Assembly: GCA_027007025.1 (NCBI GenBank)
Contig: JALTFL010000002.1
Coordinates: 167,066 to 231,065 of the forward strand
Source of the DNA: Nanobdellati archaeon
GTDB taxonomy: Archaea; Nanobdellota; Nanobdellia; CSSed11-243R1
Direction of reading: 5' to 3'
DNA length: 64,000 bases
Shown: piece after piece, positions 2,886 to 38,393 of the stretch
How positions within the stretch are numbered: position 1 is the first letter of the stretch
How the letters are laid out: each line of letters begins with the position of its first letter
The notes under the pieces: generated by a model
The model's database searches: none
Told to the model about the DNA's origin: nothing
The model's input: only the letters and a program-made list of their open reading frames with translations
Made by a program: the position numbers and the translations under genes

Positions 2886-3184
2886 TTGTTCCTCACCAAC
2901 ATATTAATACATCAATTGTTTATAAATGTTACTACTATTAAGTAAATACATAGAGAAAGATTTATAAATACAACACTCTTTATTTCATTGTTGAAAATGA
3001 AACCAAAAGGCGATTATCGGAATTGAATCCTTCTTTGGAGATTTGCTTAGTTATATTTCTGAATTTCAGTCATATTCTCTAAAGTTTTCAGGAGGTGAAA
3101 TTATGGAAACTAGAGTTAAGAAGACAGGTGGTCGTCGGAATCACCAAAGAAAAACATTTTAAGCGTGAGGTAGTGAAGTATTCT

Positions 3185-4453
3185 ATGGATTTTGTTGAAA
3201 TTGGAGACATTTTGGATGGAAAACACACGGGCGAGAAGGTTGCGATTCGCGGATGGGTTTACAGGGAAAGAAAGCAAAAATCTGTTTCGTTTTTTTTGAT
3301 AAGGGATGATTCAGGAATAATACAAACAGCCGTCAAGCCCGGTTCTGAGTTTTGGGAAGACTCCCAGAAGCTCACGGTTGAGTCGTCAGTTAAAGTTTGG
3401 GGAACTGTCAAGGAAGACAAGAGAGCCCCGGGTGGATACGAAATCCAAGTAGAAAAACTTGAGATAGTCGGCATTGCGGAGAGGTTCCCAATCACGAAGG
3501 ACCAGAGCGAGGAATTCCTGAGAGATGTAAGGCATCTGTGGATTCGCAGCAGAAAAATGACGCTGTTCTTCAAGATAAGGAGTTTTGTGTTCGAAGCAAT
3601 ACATGAGTTTTACAAGAAGAAAGGATTCTATGAGATTCAGGCGCCAAGCTTTACGGGCTCCGCCTGCGAGGGGGGCTCTACGTTGTTCGAGGTGAAATAC
3701 TTCGACAAGAAGGCGTATTTGACGCAGTCGTGGCAGCTGTACGGCGAAGCAATGATTTTTTCCCTTCAGAAAATATATACTATTGCTCCGAGCTTCCGAG
3801 CCGAGAAAAGTAGGACAAGGAGACATCTCGCGGAATACTGGCACCACGAAATGGAAGCCGCGTGGATGCAGTTCGACGAGCTTTTGGAATTCGAGGAAGA
3901 GTTCGTAACTTTCGTGGCACATTATGTCGCGGAAAAGTGCGGCAAGGAACTCAAGGAGCTTGGAAGGGATGTTGAGGAGCTCAAGAAACTGAAACCTCCC
4001 TTCAAGAGAATGAGATATGAAGAGGCAATCAAAAAGCTCGGGAAGGAGTGGGGCTATGACTTGACGGACGCTGACGAAAGGAAACTTGTCGCGGAAATAG
4101 GTGCGCCGGTTTTCATAACCCATTTTCCGAGGGATATGAAAGCATTTTACATGCGCCCGGACCCTAAAGATAAGAAAGTCGTGCTTGCCGCTGATTTGTT
4201 GATTCCTGGAGTTGGCGAAACAACAGGCGGAAGCGAGAGAATCTATGACTTAAAGGAATTGGAAGAATCCCTTGAATTGTTCAAGCTTGACAAGAAGGAT
4301 TATGACTGGTACATTGACTTGAGGAGATATGGAACGGTTCCCCATTCAGGATTCGGACTCGGCATTGAAAGGTTGGTTATGTGGCTCGCCGGAGCGGAGC
4401 ACATAATGGAAACAATTCCATTCCCGAGAACAATTGTCCGGTTGCACCCTTAA
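3185..4453 (+). CDS. asnS: asparaginyl-tRNA synthetase (class II)
   Basis: Class II motifs are present (FRAEKSRTRRHLAEYWHHEMEAAWM, GGSERIYD, GFGLGIERLVMWL). The N-terminus aligns with archaeal AsnRS at MDFVEIGDILDG. The ORF track extends to GTG 3095. The likely ATG is 3185, with GAGGT at 3167-3171. Confidence 0.85.
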   Translation: MDFVEIGDILDGKHTGEKVAIRGWVYRERKQKSVSFFLIRDDSGIIQTAVKPGSEFWEDSQKLTVESSVKVWGTVKEDKRAPGGYEIQVEKLEIVGIAERFPITKDQSEEFLRDVRHLWIRSRKMTLFFKIRSFVFEAIHEFYKKKGFYEIQAPSFTGSACEGGSTLFEVKYFDKKAYLTQSWQLYGEAMIFSLQKIYTIAPSFRAEKSRTRRHLAEYWHHEMEAAWMQFDELLEFEEEFVTFVAHYVAEKCGKELKELGRDVEELKKLKPPFKRMRYEEAIKKLGKEWGYDLTDADERKLVAEIGAPVFITHFPRDMKAFYMRPDPKDKKVVLAADLLIPGVGETTGGSERIYDLKELEESLELFKLDKKDYDWYIDLRRYGTVPHSGFGLGIERLVMWLAGAEHIMETIPFPRTIVRLHP

Positions 4454-4511: not shown

Positions 4512-4688
4512 GGCCGCGTAGCTCAAGCACACCCTTCTTAAGAAGAAGCGTGTACGGAAGAAGGGGGGTGCGGCAAGGCGGTTAGAGCGGCAGCCTGTTA
4601 AAGAACCCTTTCTTAGAAAGAAAGCGTTCACGGAAAGAAGGGGTTGGCTGTAAGCTGTAGGTCGGCGGTTCGAATCCGCCCGCGGCCG
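4512..4688 (+). tRNA. tRNA-Asn(GTT), two introns
   Basis: Acceptor GGCCGCG/CGCGGCC with discriminator G. D-stem GCTC/GAGC. Anticodon stem GCAGC/GCTGT with loop CTGTTAA. Variable region AGGTC. T-arm GGCGG-TTCGAAT-CCGCC. Intron 1 is about 4529-4578 in the D-loop. Intron 2 is about 4602-4653 at 37/38. TATA CTTTATAAA at 4479-4487, about -27. Confidence 0.75.
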
Positions 4689-9559: not shown

Positions 9560-9812
9560 GCTCCCATAGTCTAGGAACCCTTTCTTGGGAAGAAAGCGTT
9601 CACGGAAAGAACCAAGAGAGGGATGGACATTCCGGTCAAGGATGCTGGACTCTCGCAACACCCTTTCTTAAAAGAAAGCGTGTACGGAAAGAACTTCCGT
9701 GGTGTTGGGGATATCCAGTGACCCGGGTTCAAAAGCACTTTCTCTCTTTGAAAAGAGAGAACCTGCGCTAAGAGAGAAACTTGGCGAGTGTTTGAAAGTC
9801 CCGGTGGGAGCA
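9560..9812 (+). tRNA. tRNA-Glu(CTC) (probable), three introns
   Basis: Acceptor GCTCCCA/TGGGAGC with discriminator A. D-stem GTCT/GGAT. Anticodon stem CTGGA/TCCAG with loop CTCTCG..A. T-arm CCGGG-TTCAAA..-CCCGG. Introns about 9576-9633 (D-loop), 9656-9712 (anticodon loop) and 9734-9797 (T-loop). TATA-like AT tract 9526-9545. T-tract after 9812. Confidence 0.6.
9718..9804 (+). repeat. 87-nt T-arm+T-loop-intron module, identical to 24327..24413
   Basis: GTGACCCGGGTTCAAAAGCAC...GTTTGAAAGTCCCGG reads identically in tRNA-Glu and tRNA-Gly(TCC). A diverged copy on the minus strand lies at about 38235..38292. Confidence 0.8.
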
Positions 9813-20786: not shown

Positions 20787-20940
20787 GCCTCGGTGGCGCA
20801 GTCGGTAGCGCGTAAGCCTTTTCTTTCCGTAAGAAAAGCATTAAGGGAAAAGAGATGGCTGTGCAGTTGCTTGGTAATTGGCTGCGTTTGGAAGCTTTCC
20901 AATGAGCAAAAGGTCGTGGGTTCGAATCCCACCCGAGGCT
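20787..20940 (+). tRNA. tRNA-Thr(GGT), two introns
   Basis: Acceptor GCCTCGG/CCGAGGC with discriminator T. D-arm GCGC-AGTCGGTA-GCGC. Intron 1 about 20813-20865, after position 26. Anticodon stem GTTGC/GCAAA with loop TTGGTAA. Intron 2 about 20878-20905 (28 nt, 37/38). Variable region AGGTC. T-arm GTGGG-TTCGAAT-CCCAC. Confidence 0.6.
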
Positions 20941-24182: not shown

Positions 24183-24421
24183 GCGCCGTTAGTCTAGCGA
24201 CCTTTTCTCTCGAGAAAAGCTCGACCAAAAGAGAGAAGGTTGGACAATGGTTAGGATCCGAGCCTTCCACCAACCCTTTCTTTCCAAAAGAAAGCGTTGA
24301 CGGAAAGAAAGGTAGGAGGTGAGCTCGTGACCCGGGTTCAAAAGCACTTTCTCTCTTTGAAAAGAGAGAACCTGCGCTAAGAGAGAAACTTGGCGAGTGT
24401 TTGAAAGTCCCGGACGGCGCA
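24183..24421 (+). tRNA. tRNA-Gly(TCC), three introns
   Basis: Acceptor GCGCCGT/ACGGCGC with discriminator A. D GTCT-AGC..GGTTA-GGAT. Anticodon stem CGAGC/GCTCG with loop CTTCCA..A. Variable region TGAC. T-arm CCGGG-TTCAAA..-CCCGG. Introns about 24199-24248 (D-loop), 24270-24321 (37/38) and 24343-24407 (T-loop). T7 tract after 24421. Confidence 0.7.
24327..24413 (+). repeat. second copy of the 87-nt T-arm+intron module
   Basis: See 9718..9804. Confidence 0.8.
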
Positions 24422-38201: not shown

Positions 38202-38393
38202 CGCCGGGACTGGGACTTCCACGCACCGCCAAGAGTTTCTCTCTTAGCGCAGGTTCTCTCTTTTCAAAGAGAGAAAGTGCTTTTGAACCCAGACATCCCG
38301 AAGGAAACAGGCTCTCGTAGACTTCTTTGGTCGAGCTTTCTTCCAAAGAAAGGTCATTCCAGGCCTGCGCAATACCAAGTTATGCGATCCCGG
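38202..38393 (-). tRNA. tRNA-Ser(GGA), class II, two introns
   Basis: Minus strand. Acceptor GCCGGGA/TCCCGGC with discriminator G. Anticodon stem CAGGC/GCCTG with loop CTGGAA(A/T). Long variable arm TTTCCTTCGGGATGT. T-arm CTGGG-TTCAAA..-CCCAG. Introns at 37/38 (about 43 nt) and in the T-loop (about 65 nt). TATA TTTATAAAAC on the minus strand at 38419-38428, about -30. T5 tract downstream. Confidence 0.7.

What the first reader, a model, noticed from the sequence alone, without database searches (positions are those of the whole stretch)
4602..4653. Intron architecture: one pyrimidine arm plus two purine arms that are mirror repeats (alternative hairpins; triplex/H-DNA-capable)
Most introns read Y-arm (CCTTTCTT), short loop, R-arm 1 (AAGAAAG), spacer, R-arm 2 (GAAAGAAGG). 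R1 and R2 are mirror repeats of each other. The Y-arm can pair with either R-arm. One pairing gives a local hairpin. The other closes the long helix that sets up the bulge-helix-bulge. The homopurine/homopyrimidine mirror symmetry is the textbook requirement for intramolecular triplex (H-DNA or R.R-Y RNA triplex) formation. This could influence intron stability, recombination or transposition.
Basis: inference. Interest (0 to 1): 0.55.

Follow-up and report, generated by a model that had tools for sequence, protein, structure and literature searches.

The report
Triplex-type repeat inside tRNA-Asn intron
The second intron of an asparagine tRNA gene in a tiny hydrothermal-vent archaeon is one copy of a dispersed repeat with a pyrimidine arm, its hairpin partner and a mirror-image purine arm. 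All three arms change together across copies and species, as a three-stranded fold would require, but the fold itself is untested.

Summary
It reads Y CTTTCTT, loop AGA, R1 AAGAAAG, linker CGTTCACG, R2 GAAAGAA, then GGGGTT.

R2 is the exact mirror of R1. Y can pair with R1 (-4.1 kcal/mol) or with R2+GGGG (-12.7 kcal/mol), and the second pairing forms the helix under the splice motif.

The mirror symmetry is strongly constrained:
- About 78 such elements lie in this 678-kb genome, against 0-5 in Markov-simulated genomes.
- There are 32 different arm sequences.
- Among asymmetric arms, 71 have a mirror-only third arm and 3 a direct-only one.
- The A/T-run length matches in all three arms, also in orthologous introns of sister genomes and in other families of the class.

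Y:R1 is supported by covariation (98.8% of cells paired). Y:R2 pairing is at background family-wide (74.9% against 73.8%), although the tRNA-Asn orthologues keep some long closing helix.

The plan matches class II "potential intrastrand triplex" repeats of bacteria (Holder 2015). I found no paper describing it in archaeal tRNA introns. This scan has already reported the same family on other windows and genomes. Which molecule folds, DNA or RNA, and what the fold does remain inferred.

The parts
4512..4688 (+). tRNA-Asn(GTT) gene with two introns. Exons are 4512-4526, 4577-4600 and 4653-4688.
   Evidence: Sequence. In-silico splicing gives a 76-nt cloverleaf that ARAGORN calls tRNA-Asn(gtt). 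Default ARAGORN finds no tRNA in the window, and at gathering score Rfam finds only the tRNA at 20787-20940.
4527..4576 (+). Intron 1, in the D-loop. The boundaries are ambiguous within the CAAG...CAAG repeat. The BHB is relaxed, with AAG/AAG bulges. Its arms are Y CTTCTT 4534-4539, loop AAG, R1 AAGAAG 4543-4548, linker CGTGTACG 4549-4556, R2 GAAGAA 4557-4562, then G6.
   Evidence: Read by hand. The product was checked. The CM hit is 4526-4565. The arms carry the run of two (TT / AA / AA) in all three positions.
4601..4652 (+). Intron 2, at the canonical 37/38 position. This is the finding; it is equivalent to 4602-4653.
   Evidence: BHB scan: anticodon stem 5 bp, central helix CUGU/GCUG with 3 of 4 pairs, UAA bulges on both sides, and an 11-bp inner helix after 2+1 unpaired nucleotides. 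Splicing check.
4606..4614 (+). Y arm, CCCTTTCTT. Positions 4608-4614 pair with R1. Positions 4604-4614 can instead pair with 4635-4645.
4618..4624 (+). R1 arm AAGAAAG, the Watson-Crick partner of Y across a 3-nt loop (4615-4617).
   Evidence: Family-wide, 98.8% of Y:R1 cells are paired, with 48 cells changed on both sides.
4625..4632 (+). Linker CGTTCACG, with self-complementary ends (CG....CG) that set R2 antiparallel to R1 in the mirror register.
   Evidence: 36 of 78 linkers have both end pairs complementary (CG..CG 26, CC..GG 9), against 6.1 after letter shuffling, maximum 15.
4633..4639 (+). R2 arm GAAAGAA, the exact mirror of R1. Together with 4640-4645 (GGGGTT) it is also the 3' strand of the long closing helix.

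Best explanation
What it is. Window 4601-4652 is an enzyme-spliced (bulge-helix-bulge) intron at the canonical 37/38 position of tRNA-Asn. Its body is one copy of a dispersed repeat family, co-oriented with the tRNA genes that carry it, found in a Nanoarchaeota-type DPANN lineage. The plan of the repeat is pyrimidine arm, short loop, purine arm R1, a 6-8-nt linker that often has complementary ends, then purine arm R2 = mirror of R1.

Shown:
- Y:R1 is a real, covarying hairpin.
- R2 tracks R1/Y position by position across dozens of arm variants, several genera and families, and orthologous introns. No Watson-Crick pairing and no copying process explains this.
- The intron can be removed in silico to give a normal tRNA.
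- One alpha-type splicing endonuclease gene is present.

Inferred:
- The mirror rule is kept by selection for a fold-back three-strand contact, with R2 antiparallel along R1 in the groove of Y:R1. This is the class II intrastrand-triplex plan.
- The fold most likely forms when the sense strand is single-stranded DNA, or possibly in the transcript.
- It serves the repeat's own persistence or spread, or a general gene-end role, rather than tRNA splicing.
- In this particular intron lineage the same Y arm is also used, with R2 plus a following G-run, to build the helix that presents the two splice bulges. The two hairpins are therefore real alternatives here, and either purine arm could act as third strand to the other's duplex.
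For: Anatomy and splicing.

Alternative pairings in this intron: -12.7 against -4.1 kcal/mol.

Excess over chance: 79 mirror-bearing records against 0-5 in Markov genomes.

Mirror covariation:
- 32 distinct arms. Full-arm mirror in 46 copies, against a permutation mean of 10.2 and maximum of 20 in 2000 permutations.
- Asymmetric arms: mirror-only 71, direct-only 3.
- Run-length match in 81 of 121, against a permutation mean of 39 and maximum of 56.
- On the CM alignment of 62 distinct copies from 11 genomes, mirror identity is 0.856, against 0.766 shuffled (maximum 0.806), at most 0.71 when slid, and at most 0.73 for a direct repeat.
- Distant families show runs of 6-9 without the inner C/G, and GAGA-type arms, mirrored in all three arms in most copies shown.

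Orthologous tRNA-Asn introns:
- The D-loop intron has a T/A run of 3 in G002 and 4 in G001, and TTCTT in G000, in all three arms.
- G001 keeps R2 although a separate arm closes the helix.

Other points:
- Y:R1 covariation.
- Linker end-pair covariation.
- Distribution: 6 of 6 genomes of the family and 19 of 41 of the class sample, G000 included.
- About 52 of 78 copies are tRNA-associated, and others sit 2-6 nt after stop codons in the sense direction.
- The plan equals class II of Holder et al. 2015.
- EndA.
Against: - No physical evidence of any triplex.
- The arms are short (6-11 nt) and A-rich. The bacterial motif shown to fold in vitro is G/C-rich, and in-vivo footprinting did not support it even there (PMC4666352).
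- Purine-motif triplexes with RNA strands are reported not to form in some studies and to form in others (PMC7583470).
- In about 30 of 78 copies part of R2 is predicted to pair with downstream sequence (a second hairpin), which competes with a triplex.
- Copies within a genome and among relatives are not independent, so the permutation figures overstate significance.
- The CM and the regex searches favour purine/pyrimidine arms.
- The organism is probably thermophilic (vent metagenome), which disfavours 7-layer A.A-T triplexes.
- Wobble-type evidence for which strand folds was uninformative.
Confidence: 0.5

Rival explanations
1. RNA helix switch. The selected function is the pair of alternative Watson-Crick hairpins in the pre-tRNA, Y:R1 against Y:R2. 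This could, for example, time or gate BHB formation. The mirror symmetry would then be a by-product of near-symmetric arms that let Y pair with both.
For: In this intron both helices are possible, and the long one is in the MFE. All four tRNA-Asn orthologues are predicted to close the helix with Y plus a downstream purine tract. 22 of 78 copies favour Y pairing with the R2 zone.
Against: Family-wide, Y:R2 pairing is at background and its C-G closing pairs hold in only 18 and 28 of 61 rows. Watson-Crick pairing of Y with R2 does not depend on the run length that covaries. Strongly asymmetric arms are mirrored, not directly repeated (71 against 3). G001 has a separate complementary arm and still keeps R2. 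Copies outside introns keep the mirror arm.
Confidence: 0.15
2. RNA-level triple helix. In the transcript (pre-tRNA, excised or circularised intron, or 3' trailer), the free purine arm lies in the major groove of the duplex formed by Y and the other purine arm. This would stabilise or mark the RNA.
For: Elements are co-oriented with the tRNA genes that carry them in this window. The mirror covariation and the linker mini-stem fit a single-strand fold-back. Simulations report that Mg2+ helps stabilise antiparallel GAA third strands on RNA duplexes (PMC9631886). The 2020 review lists evidence on both sides.
Against: Experiments cited in PMC4666352 and PMC7583470 report that RNA strands are excluded from purine-motif triplexes. 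Second-hairpin pairing of R2 competes with it in many copies.
Confidence: 0.15
3. Opposite-strand plan. The functional form is on the complementary strand, as DNA or antisense RNA. There the same element reads Hoogsteen pyrimidine arm, pyrimidine arm, purine arm (class IV, U.A-U / C+.G-C), a chemistry known to fold in RNA.
For: By complementarity every class II element carries a pyrimidine-motif plan on the other strand, which from the class definitions I read as class IV (PMC4666352). Pyrimidine-motif RNA triple helices are well established (PMC7583470).
Against: All copies in this window lie sense to the tRNA genes that carry them, which gives no reason for antisense transcripts. Cytosine protonation is needed. 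No data were obtained on this point.
Confidence: 0.08
4. No structural constraint. The mirror pattern is low-complexity coincidence, or the inheritance of a few ancestral variants.
For: The arms are short A/G and T/C tracts, many of them nearly symmetric. Copies are related by descent.
Against: 0-5 mirror-bearing records are expected against 79 observed. There are 32 arm types across at least four linker classes. Mirror-only against direct-only is 71 to 3. The run of 3 (G002) against 4 (G001) holds in all three arms of one orthologous intron in sister genomes, although the R2-side difference is a complex 7-nt indel. Copying cannot produce mirror repeats.
Confidence: 0.04

Closest known systems
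Class II potential intrastrand triplex repeats of bacteria (PIT / BoxC / TM-ECO; Hoyne et al. 2000 as cited in, and Holder et al. 2015, PMC4666352)
   Same: The strand plan is the same: 5' pyrimidine tract, its purine partner, then a 3' purine tract antiparallel and identical to the partner (the reverse-Hoogsteen plan). They are also short, multi-copy and dispersed, they vary between close relatives, and the opposite strand carries a pyrimidine-motif plan.
   Different: The bacterial motif is G/C-rich, almost invariant in sequence and intergenic. Here the arms are A/T-rich and highly variable, with three-way covariation. The elements are archaeal, co-oriented with the tRNA genes that carry them, and sit inside tRNA genes as spliced introns. 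No sequence homology is claimed or was tested.
Multi-intron tRNA genes and intron 'transposition' in Thermoproteales, and DPANN archaea with alpha4-type EndA carrying the L3 loop (Fujishima 2010 as summarised in PMC4090602; Kaneta 2018, PMC5829648)
   Same: BHB-type introns occur at D-loop, anticodon-loop and T-loop positions. Related intron sequences are shared by different tRNAs and positions. A single small EndA is associated with heavy tRNA gene disruption in DPANN.
   Different: I found no description of a hairpin plus mirror-arm core, or of the same element outside tRNA genes, in those papers or in the full-text searches.
H-DNA at homopurine/homopyrimidine mirror repeats, and GAA/TTC triplexes (PMC11667243; PMC9631886)
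   Same: The R1/R2 pair is a homopurine mirror repeat of GAA-like sequence with a short spacer.
   Different: The arms are only 6-11 nt. The extra same-strand pyrimidine arm makes this an intrastrand (single-strand fold-back) plan rather than duplex H-DNA.

Membership tests
Archaeal BHB-spliced tRNA intron | Interrupts a tRNA gene; removal restores a canonical cloverleaf. | tested here: met
   Splicing out 4527-4576 and 4601-4652 gives tRNA-Asn(gtt), 76 nt.
Archaeal BHB-spliced tRNA intron | hBHBh' motif: two 3-nt bulges separated by a 4-bp helix and flanked by helices. | tested here: inconclusive
   Intron 2 has a 5-bp outer helix, UAA/UAA bulges, a central helix with 3 of 4 pairs (U.U mismatch) and an inner 11-bp helix after 2+1 extra unpaired nucleotides. 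Intron 1 fits only a relaxed form (read by hand).
Archaeal BHB-spliced tRNA intron | Splicing endonuclease encoded in the genome. | tested here: met
   One 176-aa EndA with N-terminal and catalytic domains. No paralogue was found in the 93%-complete genome.
Archaeal BHB-spliced tRNA intron | Intron absent from the mature RNA. | not testable with these tools
   No RNA run was listed for this DNA.
Class II intrastrand triplex motif (ITxF / PIT definition) | Order on one strand: pyrimidine tract, Watson-Crick purine tract, then a 3' third tract. | tested here: met
   A mirror arm of at least 7 nt lies downstream in 71 records and upstream in 3.
Class II intrastrand triplex motif (ITxF / PIT definition) | The third tract is antiparallel and identical to the duplex purine tract (G.G-C, A.A-T). 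| tested here: met
   There are 7 of 7 layers in this intron and 6 of 6 in intron 1.
Class II intrastrand triplex motif (ITxF / PIT definition) | Stem of at least 8 nt, the size Holder et al. treat as clearly above chance. | tested here: not met
   This intron has 7 layers. Many other copies have 8-12.
Class II intrastrand triplex motif (ITxF / PIT definition) | Folds into a triplex in vitro or in vivo. | not testable with these tools
   This needs CD/UV melting, NMR and DMS footprinting.
RNA conformational switch (two alternative helices) | Both alternative helices are conserved or covary across homologues. | tested here: not met
   Y:R1 is 98.8% paired with covariation. Y:R2 is 74.9% paired, equal to the shuffled and slid controls.
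Transposed / shared tRNA intron family (Thermoproteales type) | Related intron sequences at different positions of different tRNAs in one genome. | tested here: met
   D-loop, anticodon-loop and T-loop copies occur in several tRNA genes.

The most novel reading that the evidence does not exclude
The three-way covariation is evolutionary evidence that a fold-back purine-type triple-stranded structure really forms in cells. It may be the working part of a new kind of small non-autonomous element. Such an element would settle at gene ends and inside tRNA genes, where the splicing endonuclease renders it harmless, which would make it a source of archaeal tRNA introns. If the fold forms in the transcript, it would be the first natural extended purine-motif RNA triple helix.
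Probability: 0.25. Interest if true: 0.85.

Novelty: new variant of a known kind. Interest (0 to 1): 0.62.

Why it matters
Two open questions meet here: whether intrastrand triplexes have any biological reality, and where archaeal tRNA introns come from.

In bacteria the triplex-type repeats are nearly invariant, so their structure could never be tested by covariation, and in-vivo footprinting did not support stable triplex formation. Here dozens of arm variants keep the mirror rule, which is the comparative signature normally taken as proof of a structure. The same element fills most tRNA introns of a genome-reduced archaeon and also sits outside tRNA genes.

That gives a concrete candidate for intron origin that can be tested in vitro, and short natural sequences for triplex biophysics.

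Tried and rejected
- ARAGORN in default mode found no tRNA in the window. At gathering score Rfam found only one, at 20787-20940. Both are blind to multi-intron genes.
- Sequencing runs: no RNA holder was listed.
- Third-strand chemistry. Substitutions of R2 relative to the mirror were mostly a terminal G to C in one linker class, and did not discriminate between triplex chemistries.
- Wobble test for which strand folds. Internal U.G (5) against C.A (8) mismatches were too few and too noisy.
- Transposase link. There was no Y1 (IS200/IS605) transposase hit and no TnpB-type hit above cut-off in the 93%-complete genome.
- Synteny of the upstream aminoacyl-tRNA synthetase with tRNA-Asn was not found in any of the 38 relatives' loci fetched, so it gave no wide orthologue series.
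- My strict BHB scanner did not recover intron 1. Its boundaries rest on hand reading and on the spliced product.
- A model in which Y is the Hoogsteen strand of an R2:downstream-pyrimidine duplex was considered. It was set aside because only 3-4 nt of R2 are usually paired downstream.
- Full intron tables for the other tRNA genes of the window were not built.

Full report
**The locus.** The window belongs to a 678-kb, 5-contig, 37% G+C genome that is 93% complete. The closest named relatives of its proteins are Nanoarchaeota / Nanoarchaeia MAGs. The DNA is held by hydrothermal-vent metagenomes.

Positions 4512-4688 are a G+C-rich island directly after a class II (D/K/N) aminoacyl-tRNA synthetase gene. 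Default ARAGORN finds no tRNA in the window, and at gathering score Rfam finds only one elsewhere. Read by hand, the island is a tRNA-Asn(GTT) gene broken by two introns. Removing 4527-4576 (D-loop) and 4601-4652 (37/38) gives a 76-nt cloverleaf that ARAGORN calls tRNA-Asn(gtt).

**The splice motif.** A BHB scan finds the following for 4601-4652:
- the anticodon stem as outer helix;
- a central helix with 3 of 4 pairs;
- two UAA bulges;
- an 11-bp inner helix after a few unpaired bases.

This is a slightly relaxed motif. One 176-aa alpha-type EndA is encoded, and no second subunit was found. That agrees with the published link between loop-bearing alpha4 EndAs and disrupted tRNA genes in DPANN (PMC5829648).

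**The arms.** Intron 2 reads as follows:
- CCC-TTTCTT, with Y at 4608-4614;
- AGA loop;
- AAGAAAG (R1, 4618-4624);
- CGTTCACG linker;
- GAAAGAA (R2, 4633-4639);
- GGGGTT.

R2 is R1 read backwards. Y pairs with R1 as a 7-bp local hairpin (-4.1 kcal/mol). Alternatively AACCCUUUCUU pairs with AAGAAGGGGUU (-12.7 kcal/mol). The second pairing is in the MFE and lies next to the splice bulges.

Intron 1 has the same plan with one residue fewer per arm: CTTCTT / AAGAAG / GAAGAA. So the description is right for this gene. The literal strings are particular to this intron, since GAAAGAAGG occurs once in the window. It is the architecture that recurs.

**A repeat family.** BLAST, a regex and a motif-free scan all find many copies. 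The motif-free scan looks for any perfect pyrimidine/purine hairpin of at least 7 bp and then asks what lies downstream. Results:
- About 78 hairpins in this genome are followed, 6-11 nt later, by the mirror of their purine arm. There are 79 strand-records, against 0-5 in Markov-simulated genomes.
- A mirror arm of at least 7 nt lies downstream in 71 records and upstream in 3.
- Thirteen strict copies lie inside or at the tRNA-like loci of this window, at D-loop, anticodon-loop and T-loop positions, all in the sense orientation.
- Genome-wide, about 52 of 78 copies are tRNA-associated. Others lie in tRNA trailers or 2-6 nt after stop codons.
- A covariance model built from 24 copies finds the family in all six other genomes of the same family and in 19 of 41 genomes (G000 included) of the sampled class.

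**The decisive test: is the mirror symmetry constrained?** It is.
- The genome holds 32 different arm sequences. Examples are AAGAAAG, AAGAAAAG, AAAGAGAGAA, AAGAAAGAAAAG and GAGAAAGAAA. Nearly every one is followed by its own mirror.
- Full-arm mirrors number 46, against 10.2 (maximum 20) when downstream tracts are permuted among copies.
- For arms that are not themselves symmetric, the third arm is mirror-only in 71 cases and direct-only in 3.
- The length of the inner T/A run (2, 3, 4, 5 or 6) agrees between Y/R1 and R2 in 81 of 121 parsed elements, against a permutation mean of 39 and maximum of 56. It does so across different linker classes.
- On the model-based alignment of 62 distinct copies from 11 genomes, mirror identity is 0.856. 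The controls are 0.766 for column shuffles, at most 0.71 for slid registers and at most 0.73 for a direct-repeat reading.
- Copies from other families show runs of 6 to 9, loss of the inner C/G, and GAGA-type arms, in most cases in all three arms together.

**Orthologous introns.** The orthologous tRNA-Asn genes of sister genomes show the same rule. The D-loop intron has TTCTT in G000, TTTT in G001 and TTT in G002, with matching R1 and R2 in each, while its flanks align well between G001 and G002. The R2-side difference between G001 and G002 is a complex 7-nt indel. Copying can make direct or inverted repeats but not mirror repeats, so I read this as compensatory evolution under a structural rule.

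**Which pairings does covariation support?**
- Y:R1 is supported. 98.8% of cells are paired, 48 cells are changed on both sides, and the slid controls reach at most 77%.
- Y:R2 in the register used by this intron is not supported family-wide. It is 74.9% paired, against 73.8% shuffled and 68-74% slid, and its C-G closing pairs hold in only 18 and 28 of 61 rows.
- Ensemble folding predicts Y pairing with R1 in 47 of 78 copies and with the R2 zone in 22 of 78. Part of R2 pairs with downstream sequence (a second hairpin) in about 30.
- In T-loop introns the helix under the bulges is made by flanks such as GCACCC/GGGTGC.
- Within the tRNA-Asn anticodon-intron lineage, all four orthologues are predicted to close the helix with Y plus a downstream purine tract. 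The partner differs: R2 plus a G-run in G000, a fused tract in G002, the R2 zone in G004, and a separate arm AGAAAGGG in G001, where R2 is still retained in the loop.

So the alternative-hairpin picture is right for this intron, but it is not what holds R2 in mirror form.

**A further detail fits a fold-back.** In 36 of 78 copies the linker ends are complementary (CG....CG in 26, CC....GG in 9). After letter shuffling the figure is 6.1, with a maximum of 15. This includes an inner-pair swap from G:C to C:G. The mini-stem places R2 antiparallel to R1 in exactly the mirror register.

**Comparison with what is known.** The plan is that of class II 'potential intrastrand triplex' motifs (PIT, BoxC, TM-ECO). 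The order is pyrimidine tract, purine tract, then a reverse-Hoogsteen purine tract. The opposite strand carries a pyrimidine-motif plan (PMC4666352).

According to that paper, the E. coli motif folds as DNA in vitro, in-vivo footprinting did not support a stable triplex, and purine-motif triplexes do not form in RNA. A 2020 review lists evidence on both sides (PMC7583470). Simulations of GAA third strands on RNA duplexes find that Mg2+ helps stabilise the antiparallel form (PMC9631886).

The elements here differ from the bacterial ones. They are A/T-rich, variable with covariation, archaeal, co-oriented with the tRNA genes that carry them, and used as tRNA introns. Multi-intron tRNA genes and shared intron families are known from Thermoproteales and DPANN (PMC4090602, PMC5829648). 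I found no paper linking them to a mirror-arm or triplex-type core.

**Earlier work in this scan.** Earlier follow-ups reported the same family on other windows of this genome and in other DPANN genomes, with the same closest analogue. I took the PIT/BoxC name and the Holder paper from those notes and then checked the plan myself.
- the direct test of the alternative-hairpin idea;
- the orthologue series for tRNA-Asn;
- the linker end-pair covariation.

**What remains inferred.** Three things are still open: that a triple-stranded fold forms at all, in which molecule, and what it is for.

I favour a fold of the single-stranded sense strand that serves the repeat itself, with the closing helix of this intron as a secondary use of the Y arm. 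A selected RNA helix switch, an RNA triplex and the opposite-strand plan are less likely rivals. The short A-rich arms, the probably hot habitat and the competing second hairpin all argue for caution. No RNA data were available, and no transposase of the single-strand type was found.

Noticed in passing
window 3095-4453 (+) and 4512-4688: A class II aminoacyl-tRNA synthetase of the Asp/Lys/Asn type lies 58 nt upstream of tRNA-Asn on the same strand. The pairing was not found in any of the 38 relatives' loci fetched.
   Followed up: partly
L073:2818-2870 against L072:2824-2860 (just after the synthetase stop codon): One Nanoarchaeota MAG has CACC-TTTTT-AGG-AAAAAG-CTG-CACC-AAAAAG after the stop codon. 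A close relative has only CACC-AAAAAA at that place. The hairpin-plus-linker module is therefore present or absent between 4-nt direct repeats, while the third purine tract stays. This may show the unit that is gained or lost.
   Followed up: no
G000 C4:141065-141592 (L110:1474-2004, minus strand): This is the only splicing endonuclease gene found. It is a 176-aa alpha-type protein (N-terminal plus catalytic domain), in a genome full of D-loop and T-loop introns with relaxed splice motifs. No second subunit was detected by sequence.
   Followed up: partly
L060 and L061 (tRNA-Asn of G001 and G002), against window 4664-4680: The sister genomes carry a third, T-loop (59/60) intron in tRNA-Asn that G000 lacks. 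The two sister copies have different arms (TTTCTCTTTT in G001, CTTTTCTT in G002). In G001 the third arm is the exact mirror. In G002 its A-run is one longer than in the hairpin arms.
   Followed up: partly
G000 C4:7538, C1:6256, C1:25438, C4:63459: Copies of the element start 2-6 nt after the stop codon of a protein ORF, in the sense direction. The one at C1:25438 is followed by a T-run. This suggests a gene-end role unrelated to tRNA.
   Followed up: partly
window 9740-9800, 24349-24410, 38254-38275 (minus strand), and five further contig sites: A subfamily with arms TTCTCTCTTT / AAAGAGAGAA / AAGAGAGAAA and linker CCTGCGCT fills the T-loop intron of several different tRNA genes. The sequence is nearly identical between genes, which suggests recent copying.
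   Followed up: no
window 20787-20940: The one tRNA that Rfam detects has an element-bearing intron at about 20811-20856. It also has a second inserted stretch, at about 20870-20905, that does not look like the family. I did not work out its splice sites.
   Followed up: no
whole genome G000: Standard tRNA finders recover only about 20-25 tRNA loci, many with the wrong anticodon or intron call. For example, ARAGORN in intron mode calls the Asn gene as Ser. Annotation of this lineage's tRNA set will be badly incomplete.
   Followed up: partly
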